In this document: positions 29,670 to 48,436 of the stretch, in pieces
Layout: each line of letters begins with the position of its first letter
Numbering within the stretch: position 1 is the stretch's first letter
NCBI GenBank assembly: GCA_964550865.1
Contig: CAZKCX010000001.1
Location: 1-48,436, forward strand
Reading direction: 5' to 3'
Length of the DNA: 48,436 nt
Source of the DNA: an uncultured Planctomycetales bacterium
GTDB lineage: Bacteria > Planctomycetota > Phycisphaerae > UBA1845 > JAFGLZ01
Notes under the pieces: generated by a model
Database searches by the model: none
The model's input: the letters and a program-made list of their open reading frames with translations, nothing else
Told to the model about the DNA's origin: nothing
Program-made: the position numbers and the translations under genes

Positions 29670-29712
29670 TCGGCGGACCGGGCGCGCGGCGGGTGCCGTG
29701 CGGAGGTCTTGG

Positions 29713-31269
29713 ATGCGAGGCATGACGGATCGAGCGATACATTCCGGGCGGCGCGGCATCATCCTGCCGGTGGTGCTCGTGATCCTGATGCTGCTTGCGA
29801 TGATGGGCATGGCCTTCTCGCTGGCGACGAGCGCGGAGTTGGGTGCGGCCGGCGCGCGGGCCAACCGTATGCAAACGCGCCTGGCCGCAGAGGCGGGGCT
29901 GCAGCGGATTCTCCTGCTGTTGCGCGAGGACCGTGCCCGCATGAGCATGTGGTGGAACACCCCCGACCTTCGCGCGGTGCAGATCTACCCGCCAAACACG
30001 GAAGGCCAGGAGTTCGGCGAGCGCGACCTGGTGGCCGAAGAGGGCGAGGAGGACGAGAAGCCCCAGCAGGAGCTCGGCATTCGCTGGCGGTATAGCATCG
30101 TCGCGAACGACCTGGACATCCTCGGGGAGAGCGATCGGCCGATTCGCTACGGCATTCAGGACGAGGCCGGCAAGCTGAACATCAACTGGGCGACGCGCGA
30201 CCAGCTTATGGCGTTGTTCATGGCCGTGCTCAGCCCCGAGCTTCCCTTGGAGGAGCTCGTCGACGCGGTGATCGACTGGCGGGACAAGGACTCGATGACG
30301 AGTCCGGCCGGTGCGGAGAGCGACTACTATCGACAACGAATTCCCCCCTATTCCGCGGCCAACGCCCCGTTCAAGACGGTGGAGGAGCTGCTCCTGGTGA
30401 AGGGGTTCGTCGCCCAGGTGCTCTACGGCGAAGACTACAACCGCAACGGGATTCTCGATCCCGCGGAGGACGACGGGAACCTGACGTTCCCGCCGGACAA
30501 CGGCGACGGAGAGCTGAACCGCGGGCTGCTGCCGTACGTCACGGTCTACTCGATGGGACAGGATCGCGCCAGCGACAACAAGCCGCGGATCTACATGAAC
30601 GCCAAGCTCGATCAGATCGAGCCGTTGCTGACGGAGCTCGTCGAGAGCGACCTGGTGGACACGATCCTGCAGCTTCGGGCCCAAGGGTACGTCTTTACGA
30701 GCCCGGCCGATCTTGCGGGGGAGATCACGCTCAAGGGCAGCGAGGAACCGTTGGAGATTCAAGCGGCACCGGAGGATATGTTGATCGTCATGGATCGCTT
30801 GACGACGATCCCGCGTCCGGAGAACATGGGACCGTTGGGGGCGATGGTGGCCATTCCGTTGCCGCATGTGATCAACGTAAACACGGCACCTCCACCGGTT
30901 TTGGCGTGCTTGGGTCTGGACGACGAGCAGATTGAGACCATCGTCTCGACGAGGATGGAACTGAGCGACGAGGAGAAGATCAGTCCCGCGTGGCTGCTAA
31001 ACGCCGGCGTGATGACGGCCGAAGAGTTGGCACGGTTCACCGGTCCGCAGCTCAATACGATCCGCATCGTAACGCAATCGTGGCAGTTCACGGTAGAATC
31101 CGTGGGGTACGGCGACCATGTCGGCATGGTCTGTCGCCTCCAGGCCGTCATCGAGATGCAAGGACAAGTCCCGCTGATCAAGTACATGCGGGACATCACC
31201 AAGCTCGGACCGGGCTGGCCCATCCGAGCCGAAGAGGAAGAACGTGAGATTACCGGGTCCACTGGCTGA
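29713..31269 (+). CDS. gspK: minor pseudopilin GspK-like
   Basis: Start ATG 29713 with GGAGG 7 nt upstream. Hydrophobic N-terminus without Glu5 (GIILPVVLVILMLLAMMGMAF). GspK hallmarks: IQDEAGKLNIN, DWRDKDSMTSPAGAESDYY, YSAANAPFKTVEELLLVKGF, INVNTAP. Confidence 0.8.
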   Translation: MRGMTDRAIHSGRRGIILPVVLVILMLLAMMGMAFSLATSAELGAAGARANRMQTRLAAEAGLQRILLLLREDRARMSMWWNTPDLRAVQIYPPNTEGQEFGERDLVAEEGEEDEKPQQELGIRWRYSIVANDLDILGESDRPIRYGIQDEAGKLNINWATRDQLMALFMAVLSPELPLEELVDAVIDWRDKDSMTSPAGAESDYYRQRIPPYSAANAPFKTVEELLLVKGFVAQVLYGEDYNRNGILDPAEDDGNLTFPPDNGDGELNRGLLPYVTVYSMGQDRASDNKPRIYMNAKLDQIEPLLTELVESDLVDTILQLRAQGYVFTSPADLAGEITLKGSEEPLEIQAAPEDMLIVMDRLTTIPRPENMGPLGAMVAIPLPHVINVNTAPPPVLACLGLDDEQIETIVSTRMELSDEEKISPAWLLNAGVMTAEELARFTGPQLNTIRIVTQSWQFTVESVGYGDHVGMVCRLQAVIEMQGQVPLIKYMRDITKLGPGWPIRAEEEEREITGSTG

Positions 31270-34078: not shown

Positions 34079-37000
34079 ATGATCTCTTCGTTACTATGGC
34101 GTCTTCGTAGGCGGTCCGGCGTGGTCGCGCTGGCGATTGGCATGGCCGTCGCGGGGGGCGACGGAGTGCTTGCCGCCGAGGCACCGGCACGGAAAGGAGC
34201 GACGACCCAGTCGGCTCGACGATCTCCCACGACGCTCCCGGCGAAGTCGAAGTCCGCCACCGTGGACAGAGCAAAGTTGGCCGAGGCGATGCGTCGTGCG
34301 CGGACGTCGACCCAACGTGCCGCTGCGACCGCACGGGCCCGCGCCGAGGCCCTGGCACGACAACGCCAGGCGACACAAGCCCGGACCTCGGAAGAATCCA
34401 ACCCGAGCAAAACGGCGCTCAGCGCGGAGGAGCGAAGAAACCGCTTCAAACGCCGCTTGCAGGAGATTCGCGAGCGATCCCGCAAGTCCCCGACCACCTC
34501 GGTGGAGACCCGGCAACTCGCCAAGAACTCCACACCGAAGGCCCCCGCACCCAAGGCGAACAACAAGAACGGGGCGCAGGGCCGGCCGACCCCGCCCCCG
34601 GCCGCCCCGCAGCCACCCCCCGAGGAGCGCAAGTACGTCCTGAGCTTCCAGAAGGCGACCTGGGACGAGATTCTCAACACGTTCTGTCGCTGGAGCGGCC
34701 TGACGATCATGGGCAAGTACCCCACGACGACGGGCGACGGCATTACGTACATCAACCAGCGGCCGCTGACGTACCATGAGGCCTTGCATGAGCTCAATCT
34801 TCTGCTGATGCAGAACATCCCCAGCTACTACCTGATGCGGGAGAAGAACCACCTCATGCTGCGGCGGATGTCGGATTGGCCCCATTACGTGCCGATGGAC
34901 AACCGTTTCTACAGCGTGGAGGAGTTCAAAAAGGCCGAGATCGACGACGACGAGTGGGCGATGGTCTTCTACACGCCCGAGGTCAGCGACGTCGGCGAGG
35001 TGATTACCGAGATCCTCCAGACCATGCCCGACGGCGTGGTCCTGCCGGCGACCATGGGCGAGACCAGGCGCCTCAAGGTCACGGGCATCGTCCACTACAT
35101 CCGCCAGTTTATCCGGCTGGCCGAGAGCGACATGTTCAAGGACGAGGCGGCCGACGCGGCGAAGCTCCGCAAGATCAAGTTCTACAAGATCGAGCGGGCA
35201 CAGGCCTCCTCGGTGCAGCAAGTCCTCGAGCGGATCGTTCTGCCGCCAAAGCGCACCCGGTTCACGAGCGCCGACGAATCGCAGAAGGTCGACATGGTGC
35301 TCGATCAACTCAGCAACACGATCATCGTCAAGGCCCGCGAGGAGCACCATCGCGAGATCGAGGCCATGATCGAGAAGATCGAGAAGGCCGAGCTGGTCTC
35401 GGACGCGCAGGTGACCTTCCTCAAGCTCGAGCACGCCCGGGCGGAAGACCTGGCCAACCTGATGAATCCGCTGCTGCAGCGGCAGGCATCGATGAAGCCG
35501 AGCTTCGATCGACGCCAACGGGAGCGGGAGCAGGTCTATCTCCAGGCGGATCCGGCCAGCAACAGCCTGATCGTGCTGGCGGCGAAGGAGGGGCTCGAGC
35601 GCGTCAAGAAGCTGCTCGAGCAGCTCGACGTCGAGACGCCGGAGGCCCAATACAGACGGATCGAGCTGGAGCACGTCAACGCCGACCAGATCTTCACGGT
35701 CGTCAACAACATCGTCCAGTCGCGTCAGGGGCGGTTCCGAGGCCGTCGCGGCGGCGGGCAGCAACTCCAGGTCATGCCGGATCCGACCGGCAACGCGCTG
35801 TTCGTGATGGGCAACCCGAAGGACATGGAGTTCGTCGAGGAGCTGGTGGCCGAGCTGGACGCCGAGGACGTCGAACGGACCAAGACGCACATCATCAAGC
35901 TCAAGAAGGCGCGGCCGAGCATGGTCTCGCAGGGCTTGCAGGCGATCTTCGGCGGGGACACCGGTGGACGACGACGCCGCACGCCGACGGGGTCCTTCCG
36001 CGCGCTACCGGACGATCAAAGCGGCGTGCTCGTGGTGATCTGCCTCGACAAGGATTGGAAGGAGATCGAGCAGCAGATCAAGGAATTCGACGAGCAATCC
36101 GTCAGCACCGATCCGGTCATGCGGACGATCCCGATCACGCATGGGGATGCCGAGGAGATCGCCACGACGCTGAACAACGCCCTACGAGGGCGTTTGGGTC
36201 GGACTCCCGTGACGGTCGGCGCCGACCGGAAGAACAACATGCTGTTCGTCACGACGCTGGAGCCGGCATTCGAGGAGATCGAGTCGCTGATTGAGAAGCT
36301 CGACAAGCCCAGCAAGGAGGGCAAGCTCGAGGTCATCCCGCTCCAACACGCCAGCGCGACCGACGTGGCCAACCTGATCACGCAGATGTTCACGGTGACA
36401 CGATCGCGCGGCCGATTCGGCGGCGGCGGGACCGCGCCGGTGATCATCCCGGACCAGATCGCCAACGCCTTGGTCGTTCGCGCGACGAAGACCGACCTGG
36501 CGGAGATCGAGCTGCAGGCCGCGCGGATCGACGACGCCGCTCGCGACGAGGGCAACAGGCCCACGATCATCCCGCTCGAGTACGCAGATCCGTCGCAGGT
36601 CGCCAGCATGTGCGAGACGATGTTCATCCGCCGGACGAGCCGGCGGAGCCGGTCCGCGGAGCAGACGACGTTCTTCATGCCGATCCCGACGGGGCTGGTG
36701 GTTCGTGCGCCCTCCCAGCAGATGGGCGAGATCAAGGATTTCATCGAGACGGTCGACTCCCCGGAGTCGGTGAACGTCGAGATCAAGACGGTGCAGCTGC
36801 CGGGCCAGGACGTCGAGCAGATCGCGAGCATCCTGCAGAACATGTTCGCCGGCGAGCGGCGAAGGCGTAGCGGCGGCGGCTCGATCAACTTCCTGCCGAA
36901 CCCGAGCTCGGACATGCTGGTGATCACCGCGCCCAAGAAGCGCTTCGAGGAGATCGACAAGGTCATCCAGCAGTACACCGAGGGTGTGAAGGTCGCGCAG

Positions 37001-40000
37001 GCGTCGATGAAGATGATCGACCTGAACAACGCCCGCGCCGACGAGGTCGCCCAGCTGCTGACGGAGATGCTCGGGGCCAAGCTCGGCCGTCGCGGACGTC
37101 GCAGCGAGATGCGTCAGGTGCAGATCCTTCGAGATCCCCGGCAGAACAAGCTGATCGTCTTCGCGCCGGACGACATCATGCAGCAGGCCGAGGAGATGGT
37201 GAAGCAGCTCGATGTGCCCATCGGCGACGAGGGCGGCGTGCGGTGGATCGAGCTCGAGAACGCCGACGCGAGCTACGTCGCCTCGACCCTCCAGCAGATG
37301 TGGGAGACGAAACAGCGACGTGGCCGTCCGCGCTTCGAGCAGCTGCCCGTGCAGATCTGGGCGGAGGCGATCACGAACTCGGTGCTGGTGATGGCCTCGC
37401 AGGAGGATTACAAGGAGATCGAGAAGCTCGCCAAGGAGCTGGACAGCAAGTTCAAGTCCGCCACGACCCAGCCGACGATCGTCAAGCTCAAGTACGCCGA
37501 GCCGAGCTACGTCATCACCATGTGCCAGGAGATGTTCCTGCCGCGGGCGGGCCAGCGTCCGGGTGCGCGACGGAGCAAGGCCACCGAGAGCATTTCCTTC
37601 ATCCCCATGCGGGACGGCCTGATGGTCCGCGCGCCCCAGTCGCGGATGAAGGACATCCTCGAATTCATCGAGAGGCTCGACGACCCGGGCGAGACCAAGC
37701 TGACCGTCAAACGCTACCACCTCAAGGGCATGGACGTCCAGACGCTGTACACCACGCTGAGCGAGGTCTTCAGCAAGACGGATCTCCAGCGCGATGAACC
37801 GCGCCCGGGCTTCGCCGTCGATCCACCGAACGAGACGGTGACGGTCACGTGTTGGACGTCCCGTCTGCCGGACATCGAGAAGGTCGTCGAGGACTTCAAG
37901 AAGGCCGAGGCCGAGAAGGAGCCCAGCAAGCGGGAGATGATCGAGGTCAAGTACACCCGCGCGACCTATGCGGCCTCGACGTTGGAGAGCCTGCTGCGGA
38001 AGGAACTGGGCGATCGGGCGGCCCGGCTGGGCAGTCGGTTGAGCATCGGCGTGGAGGATCGGTTGAATAGGGTCGTGGTCTTCGCCCCACCGGATGTCAT
38101 GGAGAAGGCCAAGGCGATCCTGGCGACGATCGACGTGAAGATGCCGGGCGCGACGACGCGCGCGTCGGACATCGACTTTCAGGTGGTCAAGTGGATCCCG
38201 ATGGAGAACATCGACGCGTCGTCGGCCGCGAGCACCATCAACCAGATCTGGGAGGCCTCGCAGCCGCCGCGCCGCTCGCAAGAGAACCGCCCGCCGATTC
38301 GGATCTGGCCTGAGACAATCACGAATACCGTGCTGGTGGCCGGGGCGTACGGCAAGGAGTACGAGCTCATAGAGACCATCGCCCAGGACATCGACCAGAA
38401 GGCGATCGAGAACCCCAACAAGCCCATCCTCATCAAGCTGGACTACGCCACGCCCAGCGAGGTGACCAGCATGGTCGAGGCGCTCTTCGTCCCGCCGGGC
38501 CGACGCCGTCAGAAGGAAGTGATGATCTCGACGGTGAGCGGCGGCGTGATCGTCCGGGCGCCGAAGGTCAAGCTGAAAGAGATTCAGGAGTTCATCGACT
38601 CCTACGACGAGCCCGACGCCACAGGCCTGAAGATCCAGACGTTCTACCTGCCGCAGACGAACGTCAGCGAGCTGGCCAGCACGCTGAGCACGATCTTCGG
38701 CTACAAGGAAAGACGACGAAATGAGCCCGGCTGGAGCTTCATCCCGAACACCGACGCCGACATGCTCATGGTGCTCGCTCCCGAGACCCGGATGAAGGAA
38801 ATCGAGGAGGTCATCAAGGAGTACGAGGAAAACGTTCAGAAGATGACCTCCAAGATGCAGATGTTCGACCTGCAGTTCACGCGGGCGGATTACGTCGTCG
38901 GGGTGCTGAACGATCTGCTCCGCGAGAAGCTTCGCCGCACGCGCGGACGGCGGGCCGTCAACCAACTCCAGATATCGTACGAGTCGCGGCAGAACAAGGT
39001 CGTCGTCTTCGCCCCCGACGAGGTGATGAAGCAAGTCGAGGAGATGATCAAGCAGATCGACATCGAGCTTCCGGACGAGGGCGATCGGGTCAAGTGGATC
39101 CAGATCGAGTACGCCGACGCCGGCGAGGTCGCCCAGACGGTCGAGCAGATGTTCGAGCAAAAGCGGGGGAGCCGGCGCCGCCGGGATTCGTACTCCATCC
39201 GCGAGGTCCGCATCTGGCCGGAGCGCGTCACCAACAGCATCCTCGTCAGCGCCGACCAGGAGGATTACGAGGAGATCGAGAAGCTCGCCAAGAAGATCGA
39301 CGAGGAGTACGCCACCAAGGGCCTGGAGCGCGTCAAGATCACGCCCAAGTACGTCAGCGTCAGCCAGATCCAGAGCCTCATCGACAGCCTGTTCTACGCG
39401 CGGACCCACCGGCGCGATGTGCGGCATCAGACCCAACGGATTCGCATCATCCCAGCCGGTGCGTACAGCTTCTTCCTGGAGGCGCCGAAGGACAAGCTTT
39501 CCGAGGTCCAGAAGCTCATTGAGGAGATGGACACTGAAGGCGAGAACGCCCCCATCGTCAAGACGTTCAAGATGGGTGACGTGGATGTCCGCCAGCTCGC
39601 TCAGGCGCTGAGCATGACCACGGGGAACATCGGGTCGTACATGCCGGATCCCCGCCGCGGGGCGCTGATCGTCAGCGCGCCGAAGCACCAGTTCGACCGC
39701 ATCGAAAAGGCGATGGAGCAGCTCAAGGCCGACATCGAGGAGGAGGAGGCCCAGTTCCGTGTCTTCACGCTCAAGCATGCCCAGCCCAACGCCATCGATG
39801 GCCAACTACGATCCCTCATCAGCATGCGCCTGAGCCGTCGCACCCGCTACCGCGGGGAAGACCTGCGGCTTTCGCTGATGGCCGATCGGAGCAACAACCG
39901 GCTGTTCGTCTACGCCGGGCCGGAGGAGATGGCCCTCGTTGAGTCGATGTTGGAAGAGCTCGACGTACCCGGCCTCAGCCAAGAGGCCGTCCTGCGGACG

Positions 40001-43000
40001 CTGCCCCTGGAACGGACCGACTGCGAATACATGGCCAGCGTGATCCAGCAGGTCTTCACACCCGAGGAGCTCAAGCGCCGTCGCGTCCGTCGCGGCATGT
40101 CCTCGCAGGACGCCATCCCGATCCGCGTCGTGCCCGAGCCGACGACGAACACGCTGCTGGTTACCTGCGCGGAGGAGGACTTCCGCGAGATCGAGCTCTT
40201 CGTCGCCCGGCAAGAGGACGCGTATCGGGAGAAGGAGAAGGCCCTCGAGCTGATCACGCCGAAGTACGTGACGGAAAGCCAGCTGATGGCCACGGTGAAC
40301 GCGATCTACAACCCGCCGCGTCGTCGCGGGGAGCGCCAGAAGCGCTATACGGAGATCCGCGCAATCCCGGCCAGTGGCAGCAGCTTCTTCCTGGAGGCGC
40401 CGAAGGACAAGATGGAAGAGCTGAAGGAGCTGATCGCCAAGCTCGACGTCGAAGACCAGAACCGGCCCGTCGTCCGTACCTACAAGCTCAAGGACGTCGA
40501 CGTGCGGCAGCTCACGCGGCTGCTCCAGACCACGATGCAGAACAAGGGAAGCTTCATCGCGGACCCGCGAATGGGCATGGTCATCGTCAGCGCTCGGGAG
40601 TTCCAGTTCCCCGAGATCGAGGAGATGATGACCAAGCTCCAGAAGGACTTCGAGGAGACCCGCCAGCAGTTCGAGATCATCGAGCTCGAGCACGCGCGGC
40701 CGAGCTCGGTCTACAGCACGCTCAGTCAGCTGGTCAGCATTCGCATGAGTGAGCGGCGGAGTCGACGCGGCCAAAGCCTTCAGCTCTCGATGATTCCGGA
40801 CGACAGCAACGGGCGGTTGTTCGTCTATGCCGCCCAGGAGGAGATGGAGCTGGTCAAGGAGATGCTCGGGAAGCTGGACATCCCGGGGATGATCAAGGAG
40901 GCCCAGCTCTTCACGATCGAGTTGGATCGTCTGGATTGCAGCTATATGGCCAGCAAGATCCAGCAGGTCTTCACGCCGGAGGAGCTCAAGCGCCGGCGCG
41001 TCCAGCGCGGCGATTCGGCCCAGGACCTGATCCCGATCCGCGTCGTCCCCGAGGACATGACCAACTCCCTCCTGATTACCTGCGCCGAGGAGGACTTCCA
41101 GGACATCCAGAAGTTCGTCATGGAGCGCGAGGCCGCCTACACGAAGAAGGACAAGGTCCGCGAGCTGATCACGCCGAAGTTCATCAGCCAGAACCAGCTG
41201 ATGGCCACGATCAATGCCATCTACAATCCCCCGCGGCGGCGGGGGGTGCGTCAGAAGGACGTGCCGGACATCCGGGCGATCCCCGCCAGCGGCAGCAGCT
41301 TCTACCTGGAAGCGCCCAAGGACAAGATGCCCGAACTGCTCGAGCTGGTGAAGACGCTCGATGTCGAGGACGAGAACCAGCCCGTCGTGCGGACCTACCG
41401 CGTCAAGGACGTGGACGTCCGCCAGCTCGCGAGCCTGCTGCAACAGACGATGCAGAACAAGGGCAGCTTCTATGCGGACACGCGGATGGAGATGCTCATC
41501 GTCTCGGCCCCGGAGTTCCGGTTCGAGAAGATCGAGCAGACGATGAACGATCTAAAGGAGAACCTTGAGGCCGTCCGTCAGCAGTTCAAGGTCTTCCCGC
41601 TGAAGTTCGCCAAGGCGAGCAACATCTATAGCCAGCTCAGCCAGCTCGTCACGACACGCGTTCGCGGACGTCGGGGCAACGCGGAGCTGACGATTCTGCC
41701 CGACCAGGTGCTCAACCGCCTCTTCGTGTACGCCGGTGACGAGGAGATGAAGGTCGTCGAGGACATGCTCGCCGAGCTGGACGTCGAGGGCGTCGAGCCC
41801 GAGCAGCAGGTCTACTCGATCGAGCTGGAAAACGCCGACTGCAGTTGGGCCGCGTCCATGGTCCAGAACATGTTCACGCAGGAGGAGCTTCGCCGGCGTC
41901 GTCGGGGTCGGACCGGAACCGTCGTCGCGCCCATCCGCGTGCTGGCCGATCAGATGAGCAACCGCCTGCTGATCTGGGCCTCGCCCCGCGACTACGAGGA
42001 CATCGAGAAGTTCGTCATGGAGCTGGACGAGCGCGCGGAGGAGACCAAGATCGAGCGGCGGATCCTCCAGCCGAAGTTCATCCGCGCGAACGAGCTGTAC
42101 GGCATGATCCAGACGCTGTTCCTTCAGCAGCGTCGACGGACCGGCCAGCGCCAAGAGTTCATCGAGACGTTCATGGTGATGAGCGGGGCCGACATCATCC
42201 TAAATGGCCCGAAGGACCGGCTCGACGAGATCGAACAATTCGTCAAGTCGGTCGATACCGAAGAGCGCGCCAAGCTCGAGATCAAGACCTTTGAGCTGCC
42301 CGACGTCGATCTGAACTCGCTCATCTCGATGCTCAACCAGGTCTTCGCGCAGGATGCGCGGCGGCAGCGCGGCAACACGCTCTTCATCCCGGATCCGCAG
42401 AACAACGAGTTGATGGTCTCTGCACCGAAGTCGCTGATGAAGGACATCGAGGAGTTGATCGACAAGAAGCGCGAGGGCGCGGCCAAGCGAAGCCGCAGGC
42501 TCACGATGGTCGAGGTCAAGCACACCGACGCGAACTACCTGGCGAACATGTTGCGCCCCTTAATCGTCGAGAAGGCGCGAAGCCGTCGCGGTCGGTACGT
42601 CCAGCCGGAGGTCACGATCACCCCCGAGCCGCGCATGAACCGGCTGTTGATCATGGCCGCCGAGGCCGAGACGCAGATCGCCATGGAGCTGATCCAGGAG
42701 CTGGACACCGAGGCCATGGCGCTGAAGGGACAGGTCCGGACGATCGAGCTCAAGAAGGCGGAGGCCAGCTACGTCGCCAGTACGCTCCAGACGATGTTCA
42801 GCCGACGGAGCCAGATGCGCCAGTCGTACTCGTCCTCGACGACACCGGTGTACGTGGTGGCCGAGGAGATGACGAATCGGCTCTTCGTGGCGGCCAGTGA
42901 TGCGGACTTCAAGGAGATCGAGAAGCTCGCCCAGGAGATGGACGAGGCCGCCGAGCTGGAAGGCGTGCAGGAAGAGAAGATCGAGATCAAGTTTGCCAAC

Positions 43001-46000
43001 CCGAGCCAGCTCGTCAGCGTGATCCAGCAGATGTTCACGCCGCTCAAGAGCCGCGGCCGTCGGCAGGAGAGCGACGTCCGGTTGAACGTGATGGGCACAA
43101 ACATCATCGCCCAGGCGCCGGCCAAGAAGATGGTCGAGATCAAGCGGTGGATCCAGGAGCTGGACGTCGAGGAATTCGCCGAGACGGTGACGAAGTTCAT
43201 CCCGTTGGAGATCGCCCGCGCGCGGGAGATCGTCGGCATCATCCAGCCGATGCTCCAGGCCAAGGCGCAGGAGCTGGAGCTTCGGCAGGGCCAGCGGAAG
43301 CGTCGCGGCGGGGAGCTTCAGGTGTTGCCGGACGTCCGGAACAACCGCCTGATCATTACCGCGCAGAGCCAGATCGTCACGATGGCCGAGGAGTTGATCA
43401 AGGAGCTCGACGTCGAGGACCCGGCGTGGACGGGGGAGACGGTGGAGATCGTCGACCTCGACAAGGCCGACGCCACACAGGTCGCCCAGGTGCTCGACCA
43501 GATTCTGCGCGACGACGAAGGGGGGCGCCGGCGCCGGCCGAAGAAGGGCAGCAGTCGAGAATACACCGGACTCGCGGTCACGATCGTGCCCGATGCGGCC
43601 AGCAATACCCTCATCCTCAAGGGCCTGCCGCGCGAGCTGGATCGCGTCAAGGAACTGGTCGCGGAGATCGAGGAGAAGGCCGTCGCCGGCGGCGTGCAGT
43701 TCCAGCTCTATCGTTTGGAGGAGTCGGACGCCGAGGAGGTCGCCACCGTCGTCCAGCAGATGGTCACGGCGGCAAGCGGCGCGCGAGGCCGCCGCGCGCC
43801 CGTCCAGGTCACGAGCAACTACATGATGAACGCGGTCTTCGTGGCGGGCACGGCCAAGCAGCAGACGATGGCCAAGGCCGTGATCGACGCGTTCGAGGAG
43901 CCCGCCTACGAGATCGACCCGGTGACCGGTGAGAAGACCCTTATCGAGCGAAAGCCGTTCGAGTTCATCACGCTGGAGTACTCCGACGCGTACGATCTGC
44001 TTTATGACATCGAATCCCTCGTGGAGAAGCGGTTTGGTGAAAAGGGACCAACGCTCGAGACCCTCTGGAATGACTCGTCGGTGCTAATGGTCAGCGGCAA
44101 GCCCGACCAGGTGAAGTACGTCAAGGAGTTGGTCCAGTTCTTCGAGGACAAGAACGCCAAGAAGCCGCCCGTCACGCGGACGTTGGACCTGGGCATGCTC
44201 AGGGCGGAGGATCTCAAACGCCAGCTCGGTGCCTGGGGATTGGCCGATCCGAACAAGGTGACGCTCGTGGGCGAGGAGCCCGTCGGCGAGCTGGTCAAGG
44301 AGATCACGATCAAGCACGCGATGGAGCTTCGCCAGCAGGCAAAGGACCCGAACTTTTCGGAGAAGGAAGGGGGGCGCACGCGATCCAAGAAACTCTATCG
44401 CAAGCCCAAGACGAAGAAGGGCGGTTCGCGGTTCGAGCCGCCGAGCGTACTCGCGGAGTTGCGGGCGGAGTTAAGTGGCATCGTTTGCTCGGCCAAGGCC
44501 ACAACGACGAAGCCCGTGACCACACAGCGGACCAAGACGCTGAAGATCCGCAAGAAGAAGGCGCCGACCACCGCAGCGGTCAAGAACGCGGCGACGGTGA
44601 AGGCCAAGGCCAAACCCAAGTCTCCGCCGGCGACGAAGAAGCAAGATCCCAAGGCGAAGTCGTCGGGCAAGGCCAGGGCCGATGCGGCGAAAGCCGCCGC
44701 CGAGAGGAAGCAGGATCCCAAGGCCAAGAGTGCGCCGAAGAAGGCCGACTCGCCGTCCGCGGCCGACACCAAGAAGATCCTAGGCAAGTCCAAGCCGAGC
44801 AAGTCGACCGCCGAGCCGGTCGTCAGGCAGGCGACGACGGCGCCGCCGAAGGCCATCCAGGTGGCCACGCCCGACAAGTCTGAACCGAAAGCAAAGCAGC
44901 GGTCGTCGCGCAAGCCGGCCGCGAAGTCGAACGCCAAGACCGCCCCAGCGAAGACCAAGCCCGCCAGCGCCAAGAAGGATCCCGAGGCAAAGGCGGCCAA
45001 GACGGAGGCGGCACCTTCGAAGGCGGGCGGCTCGGAGGCTGCGAAAAAGGCCGCCACGGCAGAGGCCACGGAACCCGTAGCGCCGAGGCGCGAGTCCTCG
45101 GACGCCGAGTCCCTTGGCCTCGGGATGCGGCGAACTCGGGGCGATGAGCCAAGGCAGCGAAGGCAGCCGCCGGTTGAGGTCATCATCGACGCGAAGACGG
45201 GCACCATTCAGGTTAAGGGTCCCGACCGCAAGGTGGCGGAGATCGAGGAGTTGATCGGTACGCTCCAGTGGGAGATCGAGCCGCCGGCCGGCAAGGAGAC
45301 CGAGATCCGGGTCTATCAGCCCGAGTACATCGACGTGAACGTAGCGGCGGCGCTGTTGGAACGGGTGTTCAACGAGCGGCGCAAGCGGGTTGTTCCTCCC
45401 AAGCGGACCGCGCAGAAGGGCAAGAAGGAGGAGAAGAAAGAACCGGACGAGGAAGAGCGGATGATGTCGAATCTCCGCGAGATGATGCGAAGCCAAGGGG
45501 CAGCCGCCGCGGCGGCGGGGCTCCGCATCGTGCCGGATTCCCGTACGGGCTATCTCGTGATTCGGGGCCATCCCGAGACGATCGAGGAGGCCCTCGAGCT
45601 GTTGGCGAAGATGGACGTGCCGGGCCTGCCGCCGGGGGATATCCGGTACTTCCACTTGGTGAACCTGGACGCCCAGGAGGTCGAGCAGAGCCTCAAGGCC
45701 GTTCTGAAGCTCGAGACCCGACGGCCGAAGCTGCCGGCGATCCCGAAGGATCAGAACAAGGCCATCAAGGCCCTCCAGCAGCAGATCCAGCAGCTGCAAG
45801 GTGCGACGGGTGGCGTGGCGTTTACAAGCGATCAGGTGACGATCACGTCCAACGCCTCGACGAATACGTTGATCTGCATGGCGCCGGACGAGGTGATGAA
45901 GGAGATCGAGGACTTCATCGACACGCTCGAGACCGAGGCGGGCGGCATCGAGATCGAGACGCTCACGCTCGATGCGGCGGACGCCACGCAGGTCGCCAAG

Positions 46001-48436
46001 TCGATGACGTCCCTGTACAGCCGTCGTGCGGCGGCCGGCAAGGGCAGCGCGGCCGGTGGATTGCTGACGATCACCGCCGACGCGGCGAGCAACACGATCT
46101 TCGTCCGCGGCCCGAGGGACCTCCGCGCCGAGGTGATCGCGCGAGTCAAGGAGCTCGACTCGCAGGCATCTGAGATGGGCAAACCCTTCCGCATCGAGCT
46201 GACGAACGCCGACGCCGAGGTGATTGCCCCGAAGCTGCAGGCCATGTTCGAGACGCGGAAGGCGCGCAAGAGCCAGCAGGTGTCGTTCTTCGGCGACAAC
46301 GCGAGCAATACCCTGGTGGTCCGCGCGCCGGAGACCATGCGCGAGCAGATCATGGAGATGGTCAAGGCGCTGGATGTGGAGTCGGTCGACATCGACTTCC
46401 GCGTGTTCCCGCTCGAGCACGCGATGGCGACCGAGGTCCATCAGGCGCTCACCCAGATGACGATGCAGGTCTTCGCCCAGCTTCGCCAGCAGGGAAAGCG
46501 AAACATGAAGATGGACGTCTTCGCGGCCGTTCCCGATCCGCGGACGAATTCGCTGGTGGTCACGGGCGGCGAGACGACGTTCCTGATCGTCGAGAAGATC
46601 CTCTCCCAGCTGGACGTCGAGCCGCGCGGTGTGACCGAGCAGGTGACCGTGCTCTATCAGCTCCAACAGGCGGATGCCTCACAGGTCGCTCAGGCGATCA
46701 CCCGTCTGTACTCGAGCGGACGTGGCAGCCGGTACCTCAAGAAGACAGGGATGGAACCCCCACAGGCGGAGTACGACAGCATCACCAACACCGTGATCGT
46801 CCGCACCACCGAGAAGCTGCACAAGATGATCAAGAAGGAGATCATCGATAAGCTCGAGGACTTCAGCAAGAACAAGAAGATCAAGGACGTCACGCTCGCG
46901 CTGGAGCACGCCAAGGCCGACGACGTCGCCCAGATCCTGACGGAGTACTTCTCGCAGAAGGAGCGCCGACGGCGGGGCAAGGCGAACCCCAACGACTTCG
47001 TCCTGATCGTCGCGGAGCCCGACACCAACTCCCTCCTCATCCAGGCCAACGAGGAGAATCTGGAGGTCATCCAGGGACTCGTTGCGAAGATGGATCGCGA
47101 GGACGTCGCCGGCCGGAGCGCCCGCAAAACCAAGGTGATCCAGCTCGAGTACGCCGATCCGGGCTCGACGGCGTCGGCGATCCGCCAGGCGTTTGAGGAT
47201 GGGCGGCGGAGTCGTCGCAGTCGCGTGGGCCTTCGGGATCGCGTGGACGCCGTGCCGGAGTACACCACAGGCAGCCTGATCGTGACGGCCAGCGCCGAGA
47301 ACATGAAGGAGGTCGACGCGATCATCGAGCAGCTGGACGTCGAGACCGCCACGAAGCGCGAGACCAAGCAGGTCAAGCTCGAGCACGCCGACGCGACGGA
47401 AGTGGCCCGTCAACTCACGCAGATGTTCTCCCAGACGCGGGGCCGGACGCGACGCGGGATCCTGCCGGTGATCGTGACGGCGGACGAGCGGACGAATTCC
47501 GTGATCGTTTCGGCGAAGGCGAAGGACCTTACCGAGGTCGAGAAGCTCGTCAAGACGTTGGACGTCCCGAGCGACCTGCTGGAACGTCGCAAGCTGCGGA
47601 TCTTCCAGCTCGAGTGGGCCGATCCGTACGGGATGGCCCAGATGATCTCCCAGGCGTTCCGTACCCGAGGTGGGCGGCGGAGCCCCAGCCAGGAGGTCTT
47701 CGCGACGGCGGAGTACTCGACGGGCTCGCTGATCGTCTCGGCCTCGCCGGACAACATGGAGTTGATCGAGCAACTGGTCAAGGACGTGGACCAGGAAGGC
47801 ACGACGGGAAAGAAGATGCACGTGCTGGAGGTCAAGAACGCCGAGGCGGCCGACATCGCCGACGCGCTCGAGGACATGTTCGTCCGCGGTCGCCGCCGAT
47901 CGCGAGGCGGCCAGACGCCGGTCTCCCTCGTCAGCCCGGAGGGCACGAACAAGATCATGGTGATGGCCAGCGAGGCGGAGTACAAGAAGATCGCCGAGGC
48001 CGTGCAGGAGATGGACGTCGGCGCGGCCGATACCGCCGTCCGGTCGATCCGGCTGGTGAACATTGCGCCGGAAGAGGCGCAGACGATCCTCGAGGAGTTC
48101 CTGCGCAAGCCGGGGCGCCGCAGGCGATACGACCCGACGCTCATGGGCAACGTCCGCGTGACGGTGAGTCCGTCGGCGGGATCGCTGATCATCACGGCGC
48201 GGAAGGAGAAGCTCGACGAGCTGGAGGCGCTCATCAAGAAGATCGACGCCGAGGCCGCGGAAGAGGGCGCGGGCGTCCGCAAGATCGCCGTCTTCCGCCT
48301 GGATTTCGCCAATCCGTACTACACCGCTCAAGCGATCAGCACGACGTTCCGGAAGTCCGGGCGGGTGGCCGAGAGCGATCTGGTGACGGCGACCGCCGAG
48401 GCGAGCACGAGCGCGGTGATCGTCGCGGCCAGCGAG
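34079..48436 (+). CDS. giant secretin-family (GspD/PilQ-like) protein: signal peptide + N0-like domain + ~53 tandem secretin N-domains; 3' end outside window
   Basis: Not in the ORF track because the frame never closes. No closed plus-strand ORF is listed in this frame after 34079. Manual codon-by-codon translation found no stop over 14,358 nt, which is exactly 4,786 codons. SD GGAGGG at 34064-34069. Signal peptide MISSLLWRLRRRSGVVALAIGMAVAGGDGVLAAEA. N0-like domain KYVLSFQKATWDEILNTFCRWSGLTIMG...TYHEALHELNLLLMQN. Repeated 70-85 aa units follow the consensus h.h.L..A.A..VA..L..MF-(Arg-rich loop)-h.h..D..TNSLhV.A......IE.Lh..LD. Confidence 0.85.
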   Translation, partial: MISSLLWRLRRRSGVVALAIGMAVAGGDGVLAAEAPARKGATTQSARRSPTTLPAKSKSATVDRAKLAEAMRRARTSTQRAAATARARAEALARQRQATQARTSEESNPSKTALSAEERRNRFKRRLQEIRERSRKSPTTSVETRQLAKNSTPKAPAPKANNKNGAQGRPTPPPAAPQPPPEERKYVLSFQKATWDEILNTFCRWSGLTIMGKYPTTTGDGITYINQRPLTYHEALHELNLLLMQNIPSYYLMREKNHLMLRRMSDWPHYVPMDNRFYSVEEFKKAEIDDDEWAMVFYTPEVSDVGEVITEILQTMPDGVVLPATMGETRRLKVTGIVHYIRQFIRLAESDMFKDEAADAAKLRKIKFYKIERAQASSVQQVLERIVLPPKRTRFTSADESQKVDMVLDQLSNTIIVKAREEHHREIEAMIEKIEKAELVSDAQVTFLKLEHARAEDLANLMNPLLQRQASMKPSFDRRQREREQVYLQADPASNSLIVLAAKEGLERVKKLLEQLDVETPEAQYRRIELEHVNADQIFTVVNNIVQSRQGRFRGRRGGGQQLQVMPDPTGNALFVMGNPKDMEFVEELVAELDAEDVERTKTHIIKLKKARPSMVSQGLQAIFGGDTGGRRRRTPTGSFRALPDDQSGVLVVICLDKDWKEIEQQIKEFDEQSVSTDPVMRTIPITHGDAEEIATTLNNALRGRLGRTPVTVGADRKNNMLFVTTLEPAFEEIESLIEKLDKPSKEGKLEVIPLQHASATDVANLITQMFTVTRSRGRFGGGGTAPVIIPDQIANALVVRATKTDLAEIELQAARIDDAARDEGNRPTIIPLEYADPSQVASMCETMFIRRTSRRSRSAEQTTFFMPIPTGLVVRAPSQQMGEIKDFIETVDSPESVNVEIKTVQLPGQDVEQIASILQNMFAGERRRRSGGGSINFLPNPSSDMLVITAPKKRFEEIDKVIQQYTEGVKVAQASMKMIDLNNARADEVAQLLTEMLGAKLGRRGRRSEMRQVQILRDPRQNKLIVFAPDDIMQQAEEMVKQLDVPIGDEGGVRWIELENADASYVASTLQQMWETKQRRGRPRFEQLPVQIWAEAITNSVLVMASQEDYKEIEKLAKELDSKFKSATTQPTIVKLKYAEPSYVITMCQEMFLPRAGQRPGARRSKATESISFIPMRDGLMVRAPQSRMKDILEFIERLDDPGETKLTVKRYHLKGMDVQTLYTTLSEVFSKTDLQRDEPRPGFAVDPPNETVTVTCWTSRLPDIEKVVEDFKKAEAEKEPSKREMIEVKYTRATYAASTLESLLRKELGDRAARLGSRLSIGVEDRLNRVVVFAPPDVMEKAKAILATIDVKMPGATTRASDIDFQVVKWIPMENIDASSAASTINQIWEASQPPRRSQENRPPIRIWPETITNTVLVAGAYGKEYELIETIAQDIDQKAIENPNKPILIKLDYATPSEVTSMVEALFVPPGRRRQKEVMISTVSGGVIVRAPKVKLKEIQEFIDSYDEPDATGLKIQTFYLPQTNVSELASTLSTIFGYKERRRNEPGWSFIPNTDADMLMVLAPETRMKEIEEVIKEYEENVQKMTSKMQMFDLQFTRADYVVGVLNDLLREKLRRTRGRRAVNQLQISYESRQNKVVVFAPDEVMKQVEEMIKQIDIELPDEGDRVKWIQIEYADAGEVAQTVEQMFEQKRGSRRRRDSYSIREVRIWPERVTNSILVSADQEDYEEIEKLAKKIDEEYATKGLERVKITPKYVSVSQIQSLIDSLFYARTHRRDVRHQTQRIRIIPAGAYSFFLEAPKDKLSEVQKLIEEMDTEGENAPIVKTFKMGDVDVRQLAQALSMTTGNIGSYMPDPRRGALIVSAPKHQFDRIEKAMEQLKADIEEEEAQFRVFTLKHAQPNAIDGQLRSLISMRLSRRTRYRGEDLRLSLMADRSNNRLFVYAGPEEMALVESMLEELDVPGLSQEAVLRTLPLERTDCEYMASVIQQVFTPEELKRRRVRRGMSSQDAIPIRVVPEPTTNTLLVTCAEEDFREIELFVARQEDAYREKEKALELITPKYVTESQLMATVNAIYNPPRRRGERQKRYTEIRAIPASGSSFFLEAPKDKMEELKELIAKLDVEDQNRPVVRTYKLKDVDVRQLTRLLQTTMQNKGSFIADPRMGMVIVSAREFQFPEIEEMMTKLQKDFEETRQQFEIIELEHARPSSVYSTLSQLVSIRMSERRSRRGQSLQLSMIPDDSNGRLFVYAAQEEMELVKEMLGKLDIPGMIKEAQLFTIELDRLDCSYMASKIQQVFTPEELKRRRVQRGDSAQDLIPIRVVPEDMTNSLLITCAEEDFQDIQKFVMEREAAYTKKDKVRELITPKFISQNQLMATINAIYNPPRRRGVRQKDVPDIRAIPASGSSFYLEAPKDKMPELLELVKTLDVEDENQPVVRTYRVKDVDVRQLASLLQQTMQNKGSFYADTRMEMLIVSAPEFRFEKIEQTMNDLKENLEAVRQQFKVFPLKFAKASNIYSQLSQLVTTRVRGRRGNAELTILPDQVLNRLFVYAGDEEMKVVEDMLAELDVEGVEPEQQVYSIELENADCSWAASMVQNMFTQEELRRRRRGRTGTVVAPIRVLADQMSNRLLIWASPRDYEDIEKFVMELDERAEETKIERRILQPKFIRANELYGMIQTLFLQQRRRTGQRQEFIETFMVMSGADIILNGPKDRLDEIEQFVKSVDTEERAKLEIKTFELPDVDLNSLISMLNQVFAQDARRQRGNTLFIPDPQNNELMVSAPKSLMKDIEELIDKKREGAAKRSRRLTMVEVKHTDANYLANMLRPLIVEKARSRRGRYVQPEVTITPEPRMNRLLIMAAEAETQIAMELIQELDTEAMALKGQVRTIELKKAEASYVASTLQTMFSRRSQMRQSYSSSTTPVYVVAEEMTNRLFVAASDADFKEIEKLAQEMDEAAELEGVQEEKIEIKFANPSQLVSVIQQMFTPLKSRGRRQESDVRLNVMGTNIIAQAPAKKMVEIKRWIQELDVEEFAETVTKFIPLEIARAREIVGIIQPMLQAKAQELELRQGQRKRRGGELQVLPDVRNNRLIITAQSQIVTMAEELIKELDVEDPAWTGETVEIVDLDKADATQVAQVLDQILRDDEGGRRRRPKKGSSREYTGLAVTIVPDAASNTLILKGLPRELDRVKELVAEIEEKAVAGGVQFQLYRLEESDAEEVATVVQQMVTAASGARGRRAPVQVTSNYMMNAVFVAGTAKQQTMAKAVIDAFEEPAYEIDPVTGEKTLIERKPFEFITLEYSDAYDLLYDIESLVEKRFGEKGPTLETLWNDSSVLMVSGKPDQVKYVKELVQFFEDKNAKKPPVTRTLDLGMLRAEDLKRQLGAWGLADPNKVTLVGEEPVGELVKEITIKHAMELRQQAKDPNFSEKEGGRTRSKKLYRKPKTKKGGSRFEPPSVLAELRAELSGIVCSAKATTTKPVTTQRTKTLKIRKKKAPTTAAVKNAATVKAKAKPKSPPATKKQDPKAKSSGKARADAAKAAAERKQDPKAKSAPKKADSPSAADTKKILGKSKPSKSTAEPVVRQATTAPPKAIQVATPDKSEPKAKQRSSRKPAAKSNAKTAPAKTKPASAKKDPEAKAAKTEAAPSKAGGSEAAKKAATAEATEPVAPRRESSDAESLGLGMRRTRGDEPRQRRQPPVEVIIDAKTGTIQVKGPDRKVAEIEELIGTLQWEIEPPAGKETEIRVYQPEYIDVNVAAALLERVFNERRKRVVPPKRTAQKGKKEEKKEPDEEERMMSNLREMMRSQGAAAAAAGLRIVPDSRTGYLVIRGHPETIEEALELLAKMDVPGLPPGDIRYFHLVNLDAQEVEQSLKAVLKLETRRPKLPAIPKDQNKAIKALQQQIQQLQGATGGVAFTSDQVTITSNASTNTLICMAPDEVMKEIEDFIDTLETEAGGIEIETLTLDAADATQVAKSMTSLYSRRAAAGKGSAAGGLLTITADAASNTIFVRGPRDLRAEVIARVKELDSQASEMGKPFRIELTNADAEVIAPKLQAMFETRKARKSQQVSFFGDNASNTLVVRAPETMREQIMEMVKALDVESVDIDFRVFPLEHAMATEVHQALTQMTMQVFAQLRQQGKRNMKMDVFAAVPDPRTNSLVVTGGETTFLIVEKILSQLDVEPRGVTEQVTVLYQLQQADASQVAQAITRLYSSGRGSRYLKKTGMEPPQAEYDSITNTVIVRTTEKLHKMIKKEIIDKLEDFSKNKKIKDVTLALEHAKADDVAQILTEYFSQKERRRRGKANPNDFVLIVAEPDTNSLLIQANEENLEVIQGLVAKMDREDVAGRSARKTKVIQLEYADPGSTASAIRQAFEDGRRSRRSRVGLRDRVDAVPEYTTGSLIVTASAENMKEVDAIIEQLDVETATKRETKQVKLEHADATEVARQLTQMFSQTRGRTRRGILPVIVTADERTNSVIVSAKAKDLTEVEKLVKTLDVPSDLLERRKLRIFQLEWADPYGMAQMISQAFRTRGGRRSPSQEVFATAEYSTGSLIVSASPDNMELIEQLVKDVDQEGTTGKKMHVLEVKNAEAADIADALEDMFVRGRRRSRGGQTPVSLVSPEGTNKIMVMASEAEYKKIAEAVQEMDVGAADTAVRSIRLVNIAPEEAQTILEEFLRKPGRRRRYDPTLMGNVRVTVSPSAGSLIITARKEKLDELEALIKKIDAEAAEEGAGVRKIAVFRLDFANPYYTAQAISTTFRKSGRVAESDLVTATAEASTSAVIVAASE
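36322..43170 (+). repeat. in-frame tandem super-repeat of a four-N-domain cassette (period ~900-945 nt, ~7.5 copies) inside the giant secretin gene
   Basis: Type-a domains start at ~36322, 37238, 38181, 39086, 39987, 40901, 41803 and 42728. Three copies are in exact 915-nt register, anchored at 39440, 40355 and 41270. Confidence 0.7.
44340..45170 (+). other. Lys/Ala/Pro/Thr-rich low-complexity spacer (~275 aa) embedded in the giant secretin ORF
   Basis: Translation: ...RSKKLYRKPKTKKGG...TKPVTTQRTKTLKIRKKKAPTTAAVKNAATVKAKAKPKSPPATKKQDPKAKSSGKARADAAKAAAERKQDPKAKSAPKKADSPSAADTKK...KPAAKSNAKTAPAKTKPASAKKDPEAKAAKTEAAPSKAGGSEAAKKAATAEATEP... Confidence 0.8.

What the first reader, a model, noticed from the sequence alone, without database searches (positions are those of the whole stretch)
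44340..45170. Histone-H1/TolA-like Lys-Ala-Pro-rich spacer splitting the secretin N-domain array
Seen: about 275 codons of K/A/P/T/S-rich low complexity (..KAKAKPKSPPATKKQDPKAKSSGKARADAAKAAAERKQDPKAKSAPKK..KTAPAKTKPASAKKDPEAKAAKTEAAPSK..). It sits between about 40 N-domains upstream and about 13 downstream, and is flanked by atypical or partial domains (43.95-44.33 kb; VEVIIDAKTGTIQVKGPDRKVAEIEELIGTLQ at ~45.17 kb). The track's 44395..45207 minus ORF is its antisense shadow. Established: K/A/P/E-rich extended segments act as periplasm-spanning or cell-wall-interacting spacers in TolA/TonB-type proteins. Inference: the spacer is a flexible hinge or a peptidoglycan/polyanion-binding tether that divides the array into two functional blocks. 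I know of no such insertion in characterised secretins (memory only, not searched).
Basis: partly seen in the sequence, partly recalled or inferred. Interest (0 to 1): 0.6.

Follow-up and report, generated by a model that had tools for sequence, protein, structure and literature searches.

The report
Giant basic loop in N-domain 40
The lysine/alanine/proline-rich stretch is real and conserved, but it is a 310-residue floppy loop growing out of one ring-building domain of a giant secretin-like periplasmic protein, not a hinge between two domain blocks, and what it does is still untested.

Summary
Residues 3473-3680 of the open frame 34079..48436(+) are 55% Ala+Lys+Pro, net +35, and AlphaFold2 gives them pLDDT 30-37. 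All six known orthologue lineages carry an equivalent segment after N-domain 39 or 43, so this is not an assembly chimera.

- The two "partial domains" beside the segment are the halves of a single N-domain, number 40 (beta1-alpha1 at aa 3365-3387, beta2-beta3-alpha2 at aa 3698-3733). The segment is therefore a ~310-aa insertion in the alpha1-beta2 loop, not an inter-block hinge.
- This loop carries a short Arg-rich stretch in most of the other N-domains. It corresponds to the variable N3 loop of studied secretins; a disordered N3 loop points into the channel in the phage secretin pIV.
- The insert has a conserved amphipathic-helix motif followed by an unalignable, always net-positive Ala/Pro/Lys tail.
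- The host protein (~5,540 aa, ~63 N-domains) has no secretin pore domain. A separate 1,831-aa secretin gene follows it.
- There is no TolA, TonB or histone H1 homology.
- Low-complexity inserts occur in 44 of 123 giant Planctomycetota and Verrucomicrobiota secretin-family proteins examined. Neisserial PilQ has basic repeats. This scan has noted comparable loops in giant secretins of other genomes.

Most likely function, by inference only: a charged disordered collar or plug at rings 40-42.

The parts
34079..48436 (+). Giant N-domain array gene, cut by the contig end. It encodes a signal peptide, an Ala/Pro/Lys low-complexity stretch, a conserved head domain at aa ~185-366, and then more than 50 Secretin_N domains. 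It has no secretin pore domain.
   Evidence: The continuation lies on contig C18(-): a 721-aa tail then a stop. About 30 aa are missing between the contigs, judged against orthologue P0004.
43961..44152 (+). N-domain 39 (aa 3295-3358). Complete but divergent.
   Evidence: Own HMM scores 31.9 bits over profile positions 1-70. AlphaFold2 gives beta-alpha-beta-beta-alpha at pLDDT 77-89.
44171..44239 (+). N-half of split N-domain 40 (aa 3365-3387): beta1 VTRTLD and alpha1 AEDLKRQLGAW.
   Evidence: hhalign places it on profile columns 1-19. Joined to the C-half it aligns over 71 of 71 columns with score 58.1, against 49.6 for the C-half alone and 50.6-51.4 for 20 shuffles. pLDDT by 10-residue block is 83/79/71 with the C-half present and 54/54/61 without it.
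44240..44428 (+). Proximal part of the insert (aa 3388-3450): a short strand, a conserved LVxEITI..A helix, and a basic patch.
   Evidence: Alignments. AlphaFold2 predicts a helix at aa 3411-3422, pLDDT about 75. Mean pairwise identity is 30%.
44429..44500 (+). Conserved amphipathic-helix motif R-F-x-P-P-S-x-L-x-E-L-x-A-E-L-x-G-I-V-C-x-A-x-A (aa 3451-3474).
   Evidence: 54% mean pairwise identity with no gaps in five lineages, and present in the sixth. The Cys is found in 5 of 6 lineages and is Ser in P0007. AlphaFold2 predicts a helix at aa 3456-3466, pLDDT about 57.
44501..45118 (+). Disordered Ala/Lys/Pro/Thr/Ser-rich polycationic tail (aa 3475-3680).
   Evidence: pLDDT 30-37. Net charge +35, pI 10.5. 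It lies on the disordered side of the charge-hydropathy line. It aligns poorly between orthologues: 27% identity with 30% gaps.
45119..45169 (+). Standard Arg-rich alpha1-beta2 loop (MRRTRGDEPRQRRQP region, aa 3681-3697).
   Evidence: It aligns to profile positions 22-36, the loop present in most of the other N-domains.
45170..45277 (+). C-half of split N-domain 40 (aa 3698-3733): beta2, beta3, alpha2.
   Evidence: HMM positions 22-71 score 45 bits. hhalign probability is 97%. AlphaFold2 pLDDT is about 82.
45299..45622 (+). N-domain 41, carrying a ~50-aa Lys/Glu-rich insert with a helix in the same alpha1-beta2 loop.
   Evidence: AlphaFold2 element order E452-456, H463-475, H500-523, E526-530, E535-540, H542-555. 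50% identity among orthologues.
45638..45943 (+). N-domain 42, carrying a ~45-aa insert with a Gln-rich helix in the same loop.
   Evidence: AlphaFold2 element order E564-569, H575-585, H602-617, E631-635, E640-645, H647-664. Several columns are invariant.
44395..45207 (-). Antisense shadow ORF. Not a gene.
   Evidence: It shares the wobble position with the plus frame and its product is A/L/F/G-rich. It lies inside a conserved plus-strand gene.

Best explanation
Supported by the computations here: the segment is coding sequence of a periplasmic protein of about 5,540 aa. The protein has a signal peptide, a conserved head domain and about 63 secretin-type N (ring-building) domains, and no pore domain. 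Its gene sits in a T2SS/T4P-like operon directly upstream of a separate 1,831-aa secretin. The segment is a ~310-aa insertion in the alpha1-beta2 loop of N-domain 40, and the two halves of that domain are predicted to fold together. The insert has three parts: a conserved proximal module, which includes an amphipathic helix RFxPPSxLxELxAELxGIV(C/S); a fast-evolving, intrinsically disordered Ala/Pro/Lys-rich tail that is always net positive (124-214 aa, +8 to +35); and the usual Arg-rich loop. Domains 41 and 42 carry smaller helix-containing inserts in the same loop.

Inferred: N-domains of secretins stack as 12-15-mer rings, and a disordered N3 loop points into the channel in pIV. On that basis, rings 40-42 would form a specialised mid-conduit zone in which 12-15 copies of the basic disordered loop make a soft, positively charged collar or plug. 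This zone would contact the strongly acidic pseudopilus or cargo, or seal the tube. It would not be a hinge or a peptidoglycan tether.
For: Domain map: 39 domains, a 322-aa gap, then 14 further HMM hits.

Conservation: the insert is present in six lineages, after domain 39 in four and after domain 43 in two.

Split-domain reading:
- hhalign of the joined halves covers 71 of 71 columns with score 58.1. The C-half alone scores 49.6, and none of 20 column shuffles exceeds 51.4.
- AlphaFold2 secondary-structure order is beta-alpha, then disordered, then beta-beta-alpha, with both halves at pLDDT about 80.
- pLDDT of the N-half falls to about 54 when the C-half is omitted, while domain 39 changes little.

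Disorder: pLDDT 30-37 over aa 3468-3695, plus the charge-hydropathy result.

Loop identity:
- The 54 HMM-detected domains have alpha1-beta2 loops of median 16 aa, mean net charge +3, R:K 190:37.
- The equivalent N3 loop of XcpQ is glycine-rich and expanded.
- PulD loop 288-303 is unresolved and PulD has N3 constriction sites (PMC6882859).
- The disordered N3 loop of pIV points into the pore centre (PMC8563730).

Possible partner: the pseudopilins GspG, H-like, J-like and GspK have net charges of -10 to -30, pI 4.6-5.2, and Asp/Glu-rich inserts.

Host architecture and synteny.
Against: - I could not inspect 3D coordinates or PAE, so packing of the two halves is indirect evidence. The alignment behind the models has only five sequences and mean pLDDT is 58.
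- Plain hmmsearch did not extend into the N-half.
- Ring formation by this protein is assumed, not shown.
- Sterics, by my arithmetic: 15 x 310 aa is about 620 nm3 of chain. In a lumen about 7.5 nm wide that would form a gel tens of nm long and block a 6-nm pseudopilus unless it is displaced.
- Two lineages have only weakly basic tails (+8 and +10), and the Cys is not invariant.
- Pseudopilin acidity does not track the charge of the tail across four lineages.
- Whether PulD 288-303 and the pIV loop are the alpha1-beta2 loop specifically is my inference from the XcpQ alignment.
Confidence: 0.5

Rival explanations
1. The loop projects outward from the array. It acts as a polycationic tether binding peptidoglycan, membrane head groups or another anionic envelope polymer, or uses the conserved amphipathic helix to dock a partner protein. 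This would fix the conduit at a defined depth and functionally divide the array.
For: - Composition is Lys/Ala/Pro-rich with net +35, and Lys is preferred over Arg (44:9) even though the genome is 63% GC.
- A conserved amphipathic helix suited to docking.
- The steric cost of placing 15 such loops in the lumen (my arithmetic).
- Similar basic low-complexity stretches follow the signal peptide of the giant protein and of the secretin, as tethers would.
- The insert sits after 39 domains in four lineages while the number of downstream domains varies from 16 to 24.
Against: - A disordered N3 loop faces the lumen in the phage secretin pIV.
- If the array is an extended stack joined to the secretin, ring 40 would lie more than 100 nm from the outer membrane, far from peptidoglycan (inference).
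- Two lineages have only +8 and +10.
- No peptidoglycan-binding or other Pfam domain is detectable.
Confidence: 0.25
2. A tolerated low-complexity expansion in a permissive loop. It has no specific binding role, and at most acts as an entropic bristle.
For: - 44 of 123 giant N-array proteins have internal low-hydrophobicity segments of at least 80 aa. Their compositions differ widely (Ala/Pro/Glu acidic, Arg/Gly/Ser basic, Gln/Pro/Gly), and some sit in the same loop.
- The tail aligns poorly: 27% identity with 30% gaps.
- Tail length (124-214 aa) and charge (+8 to +35) vary between lineages.
Against: - The insert is retained in all six lineages at the same domain.
- It has a gap-free 54%-identical motif.
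- Its net charge is always positive.
- Domains 41 and 42 carry conserved neighbouring inserts.
Confidence: 0.17
3. A relic of a gene fusion. On this view the RFxPP...IVC motif plus the Ala/Ser/Lys tail is a former lipoprotein-type signal peptide and tether of a once-separate downstream gene.
For: The motif superficially resembles a basic n-region, an h-region and a Cys, followed by a tether-like tail. The neighbouring secretin also starts with a low-complexity stretch followed by a partial domain.
Against: - The 'h-region' contains Glu, Arg and Asp residues, and the -1 and -3 positions do not fit a lipobox.
- The Cys is Ser in P0007.
- The flanks are two halves of one domain, which an end-to-end fusion would not produce.
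- The genuine N-terminal signal peptides look different.
Confidence: 0.04
4. An assembly chimera or a frameshift joining two genes.
For: The genome is a fragmented MAG (972 contigs, 7.9% contamination).
Against: The same architecture appears, in frame, in independent assemblies from NCBI, ENA and JGI, including contigs of 142-171 kb. Codon usage and GC3 in the segment match the rest of the gene.
Confidence: 0.02

Closest known systems
Variable or disordered loop of the secretin N3 domain (PulD loop 288-303, the glycine-rich N3 loop of XcpQ, the disordered N3 loop of pIV, the extended N3 loop of InvG)
   Same: It is an insertion in a loop of a ring-building N-domain. In XcpQ the expanded loop aligns between alpha1 and beta2, the same position as here. 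It is disordered and variable in length. The pIV loop points into the channel, and PulD has N3 constriction sites.
   Different: The known loops appear to be tens of residues long; PulD's unresolved loop is 16. This one is ~310 aa, polycationic, and contains its own conserved helix motif. It sits about 40 rings from the N-terminus of a protein that has no pore domain, not in the N3 ring next to the gate.
Small basic repeats (SBRs) of Neisseria PilQ
   Same: A basic, low-complexity, polymorphic segment in the periplasmic part of a characterised secretin, reported to influence pilus formation (PMC3441751).
   Different: [quoted passage not shown] From memory, they are short tandem octapeptide repeats. 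The segment here contains no sizeable tandem repeat.
TonB Pro-rich region and TolA domain II (periplasm-spanning low-complexity segments)
   Same: A Lys/Ala/Pro/Glu-biased periplasmic segment with low hydrophobicity.
   Different: No detectable homology. It is not anchored by a transmembrane helix. AlphaFold2 predicts coil rather than a long helix. Both ends return to the same domain, so it cannot span a distance.
Giant multi-N-domain secretins of Planctomycetota and Verrucomicrobiota (at least 176 clusters of 3,400-6,000 aa, annotated 'secretin N-terminal domain-containing protein')
   Same: Long arrays of N-domains. About a third of those examined carry internal low-complexity inserts, some in the alpha1-beta2 loop.
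   Different: Nearly all of them contain the PF00263 pore domain in the same polypeptide. The Lys-rich, strongly basic insert and its proximal module are confined to one 50%-identity cluster among 1.84 billion representative proteins.
Lys/Ala/Pro repeat tails of mycobacterial HBHA and Hlp and of histone H1 (from memory only)
   Same: Polycationic Lys/Ala/Pro-rich disordered composition of the kind that binds polyanions.
   Different: No sequence relationship was found, the cellular context is different, and binding has not been tested here.

Membership tests
Secretin (GspD/PilQ/InvG; Pfam PF00263) | C-terminal secretin beta-barrel pore domain | tested here: not met
   There is no PF00263 in the 4786 aa within the window. 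The C18 tail ends at a stop without one. The complete orthologues P0003, P0004, P0005 and P0007 lack it, and a separate downstream gene carries it.
Secretin (GspD/PilQ/InvG) | Periplasmic ring-building N-domains (PF03958) | tested here: met
   PF03958 matches with E=0 in 38 stretches. My own HMM finds 54 hits. Foldseek's best hits are the GspD-family secretins ExeD, GspD and EpsD.
Secretin (GspD/PilQ/InvG) | N0 domain at the N-terminus | tested here: inconclusive
   A conserved ~180-aa head domain exists at aa ~185-366, but it has no Pfam N0 hit even at E<=10.
Secretin N3-type variable loop insertion | Located between alpha1 and beta2 of an N-domain, and disordered | tested here: met
   hhalign of the joined halves with a shuffle control. 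AlphaFold2 secondary-structure order and pLDDT 30-37. Truncation control. Alignment to the XcpQ N3 loop.
TolA / TonB | N-terminal transmembrane anchor, a long helical (TolA) or Pro-rich rod (TonB) region, and a conserved C-terminal domain | tested here: not met
   No Pfam hit for the 310-aa insert at E<=10. AlphaFold2 predicts coil. The segment is internal to an N-domain.
Linker histone H1 / Hc-type histone-like proteins | Sequence homology to H1 or Hc families, and a cytoplasmic or nucleoid location | tested here: not met
   No Pfam hit. The host protein has a signal peptide. The resemblance is compositional only.
Neisseria PilQ small basic repeats | Low-complexity basic repeats between the B1 and B2 beta-domains | tested here: not met
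   Tandem Repeats Finder reports no sizeable repeat in 44000-45400. The location is inside an N-domain, not between B domains.

The most novel reading that the evidence does not exclude
Rings 40-42 of a ~200-nm trans-periplasmic tube, built from the giant N-array protein plus the separate secretin, would carry 12-15 copies of a 310-aa polycationic disordered loop. Together these would form a nuclear-pore-like selective gel barrier inside the conduit. The barrier would gate or guide polyanionic cargo such as an acidic pilus, DNA or sulfated polysaccharides, in planctomycetes with a greatly enlarged periplasm.
Probability: 0.07. Interest if true: 0.8.

Novelty: new variant of a known kind. Interest (0 to 1): 0.35.

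Why it matters
Secretin N-domain loops are known to vary, but a 310-residue conserved disordered polycation inside a single ring-building domain is an extreme case. It marks a specialised three-ring zone (domains 40-42) in a protein family nobody has studied experimentally: giant N-domain arrays that presumably bridge the very wide periplasm of Planctomycetota. Knowing that the segment is a loop rather than a hinge changes how the array should be modelled. The array is continuous, not two blocks. It also tells cryo-ET and biochemistry work where to look for a collar, plug or docking site. On its own, though, the finding is a moderate curiosity. Low-complexity inserts are frequent in this superfamily, and the function remains inferred.

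Tried and rejected
- Plain hmmsearch of the joined halves did not extend into the N-half. The more sensitive profile-profile comparison was needed.
- The alternative beta1 candidate LVKEITI gave no extension.
- A 400-genome sample of the same class held no orthologue of the insert's proximal module. The genome and metagenome contig scans returned only duplicates of lineages already in hand.
- The idea that the motif is a lipobox or relic signal peptide was rejected. The 'h-region' is charged, the Cys is Ser in P0007, and the flanks form one domain.
- A universal inter-subunit disulfide through the motif Cys was rejected, because the Cys is not invariant.
- The test for a correlation between tail charge and pseudopilin acidity across four lineages was inconclusive.
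- The first domain of the secretin showed no evidence of being split in the same way; hhalign aligned only the following full domain.
- Pfam and PDB sequence searches of the insert and its proximal module found nothing.
- Three literature searches found no paper on giant planctomycete N-domain arrays.
Full report
**1. What is there**

The window is one complete contig (C1) of a 972-contig MAG of 6.95 Mb, 92% complete. From ATG 34079 the plus frame stays open for 4786 codons, to the last base of the window. Pfam finds Secretin_N (PF03958) with E=0 in 38 stretches and no secretin pore domain.

An HMM built from the protein's own repeats maps the following:
- 39 N-domains at aa 367-3358, separated by regular 6-19-aa linkers.
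- A 322-aa gap at aa 3359-3680.
- 14 further HMM hits up to the contig end (about 13 domains, since loop-bearing domain 41 is split into two hits).

The upstream genes are GspF, pseudopilins, GspK and a PilM-type protein.

The core of the reported segment, aa 3473-3680, is 55% Ala+Lys+Pro against 19.6% elsewhere in the protein. It has net charge +35, pI 10.5 and 6% hydrophobic residues. K:R is 44:9, against 282:391 in the rest of the protein. GC3 is 0.87, the same as the rest of the gene. There is no sizeable DNA tandem repeat. The minus-strand ORF 44395..45207 shares the wobble position with the plus frame and encodes an A/L/F/G-rich mirror product, so it is a shadow.

**2. It is not an artefact**

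A database search found giant orthologues. These include a complete 4974-aa gene on a 167-kb contig of a Phycisphaerae MAG. Together with contig scans and a search of 1.84 billion representative proteins, there are six distinct lineages: the window's own protein, P0003, P0004, P0005 (=L021), P0002 (=L022=L023) and P0007.

All six carry a 256-335-aa gap rich in Ala, Lys and Pro at the same place. It follows domain 39 in four lineages and domain 43 in two. The number of downstream domains varies from 16 to 24. Independent assemblies from three sources showing the same in-frame architecture make a chimera very unlikely.

**3. The host protein is not a secretin**

- The end of C1 aligns to P0004 residues 4349-4748.
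- The 721-aa open frame at the start of C18(-) aligns to P0004 residues 4779-5490 and ends at a stop.
- The full protein is therefore about 5,540 aa with about 63 N-domains and no PF00263.
- On C18 a separate 1,831-aa gene follows. It encodes a ~230-aa basic low-complexity N-terminus, 14 N-domains and the secretin pore domain.
- The same two-gene arrangement is seen in the P0003 and P0005 loci.

By contrast, nearly all of the at least 176 other giant N-array proteins (3,400-6,000 aa) from Planctomycetota and Verrucomicrobiota have the pore domain in the same chain.

**4. Anatomy of the segment**

The orthologue alignment divides the region into these pieces:
- aa 3365-3387: a conserved beta-alpha unit.
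- aa 3388-3450: a moderately conserved stretch with an LVxEITI..A helix and a basic patch.
- aa 3451-3474: a gap-free motif RFxPPSxLxELxAELxGIVCxAxA with 54% mean identity and a clear hydrophobic face. The Cys is Ser in P0007.
- aa 3475-3680: a poorly alignable tail (27% identity with 30% gaps). In the orthologues it is 124-214 aa, net +8 to +35, and 34-50% Ala+Pro.
- aa 3681-3697: an Arg-rich loop.
- aa 3698-3733: a beta-beta-alpha unit that matches positions 22-71 of the N-domain profile.

**5. The flanks are two halves of one domain**

- Profile-profile alignment places aa 3367-3385 on profile columns 1-19, in register.
- Joining the two flanks gives a full 71-column alignment with score 58.1. 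The C-half alone scores 49.6, 20 column-shuffled N-halves score 50.6-51.4, and an alternative beta1 candidate scores 50.0.
- AlphaFold2 on aa 3291-3955 (five-sequence alignment, mean pLDDT 57.7) gives beta1-alpha1 at pLDDT about 80. About 230 residues follow at pLDDT 30-37, and then beta2-beta3-alpha2 at about 82.
- When the C-half is left out, the 10-residue pLDDT blocks covering beta1-alpha1 fall from 83/79/71 to 54/54/61, while domain 39 changes little.

I could not inspect coordinates, so physical packing of the halves remains an inference. The segment is best described as a ~310-aa insertion in the alpha1-beta2 loop of N-domain 40. Domains 41 and 42 have ~50-aa and ~45-aa helix-containing inserts in the same loop.

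**6. What this loop is elsewhere**

In the 54 HMM-detected domains of this protein the alpha1-beta2 loop has a median length of 16 aa, mean net charge +3, and is Arg-rich (R:K 190:37). The big insert is Lys-rich, so it is not simply an expanded Arg loop.

In characterised secretins the same position in N3 is variable:
- XcpQ has a glycine-rich loop there.
- PulD loop 288-303 is unresolved, and PulD has N3 constriction sites (PMC6882859).

Neisserial PilQ has low-complexity small basic repeats between its B1 and B2 domains (PMC3441751). Among 123 giant N-array proteins, 44 have internal low-hydrophobicity segments of at least 80 aa. Their compositions vary widely, and some are followed directly by a half-domain hit, meaning they sit in the same loop. 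Earlier notes from this scan describe similar loops in giant secretins of other genomes. The strongly Lys-rich version and its proximal module are restricted to a single 50%-identity cluster.

**7. Mechanism**

Supported by the computations: a conserved, disordered, net-positive loop with a conserved amphipathic helix, leaving and re-entering one ring-building domain.

Inferred: if the array stacks as rings as secretin N-domains do, the loops of rings 40-42 form a specialised zone. By homology of loop position they would face the lumen. There they would make a cationic brush or plug that could contact the markedly acidic pseudopilins, which have pI 4.6-5.2 and Asp/Glu-rich inserts.

Against this: by my arithmetic, 15 such loops would fill tens of nm of a 7.5-nm lumen. 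Two lineages are only weakly basic. Pseudopilin acidity does not track tail charge.

The main rival is an outward-facing tether or docking loop that binds peptidoglycan, membrane or a partner. A neutral expansion is the second rival. Gene-fusion relic and chimera readings are disfavoured.

**8. Comparison and verdict**

The insert has no Pfam or PDB sequence match, so 'TolA/H1-like' is compositional only. It is a new, extreme variant of the known variable N-domain loop of secretins, set in an unstudied split form of the giant planctomycete secretins. No literature on these arrays was found. Interest is moderate. The structural reinterpretation is solid, and the function is open.

Noticed in passing
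window 34079-48436 and genome contig C18 (minus strand, 22369-14476): The giant gene continues on contig C18, with about 30 aa missing between the contigs, and ends without a pore domain. A separate 1,831-aa secretin gene follows. This looks like a giant secretin split into two polypeptides, whereas nearly all other giant relatives are single-chain.
   Followed up: partly
C18 secretin N-terminus (rc nt ~2402 onward); L016 25309-30672: The secretin starts with a hydrophobic segment lacking a basic n-region and a conserved helix (IDxLVKQVVSQTRP). A variable basic Lys/Arg/Ala/Thr/Pro low-complexity stretch follows, and then a partial N-domain. No N0 domain was detected.
   Followed up: partly
window 34180-34640 (aa ~35-190 of the giant protein): A second Ala/Pro/Lys/Thr-rich low-complexity stretch follows the signal peptide. 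It contains a conserved AERRNRF...RER helix and precedes a conserved ~180-aa head domain that has no Pfam match.
   Followed up: partly
window 35177-48436 (all N-domains): Most N-domains carry an Arg-rich alpha1-beta2 loop (mean net +3; R:K 190:37 over 54 loops), while the rest of the protein is net acidic.
   Followed up: partly
window 26081-31269: The pseudopilins and GspK are markedly acidic (pI 4.6-5.2) and contain dense Asp/Glu insertions, for example EEDDKLEDMFEDMDVDE and DEYEEEDEEEYHED. Three orthologous operons show similar acidity.
   Followed up: partly
window 45299-45943: Domains 41 and 42 carry conserved helix-containing inserts of about 45-55 aa in the same loop as the big insert. 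Together with domain 40 they form a decorated three-domain zone.
   Followed up: partly
proteins P0009-P0123: At least 176 clusters of giant (3,400-6,000 aa) multi-N-domain secretins exist in Phycisphaerae, other Planctomycetota and Limisphaerales. Of 123 examined, 44 have internal low-complexity inserts, often at about 60-70% of the chain length.
   Followed up: partly
protein P0008, C-terminus: This fragment ends in ...CCLLYTSPSPRDS. From memory, that is the translation of a Nextera adapter read-through, so it looks like adapter contamination at a contig end in a public assembly.
   Followed up: no
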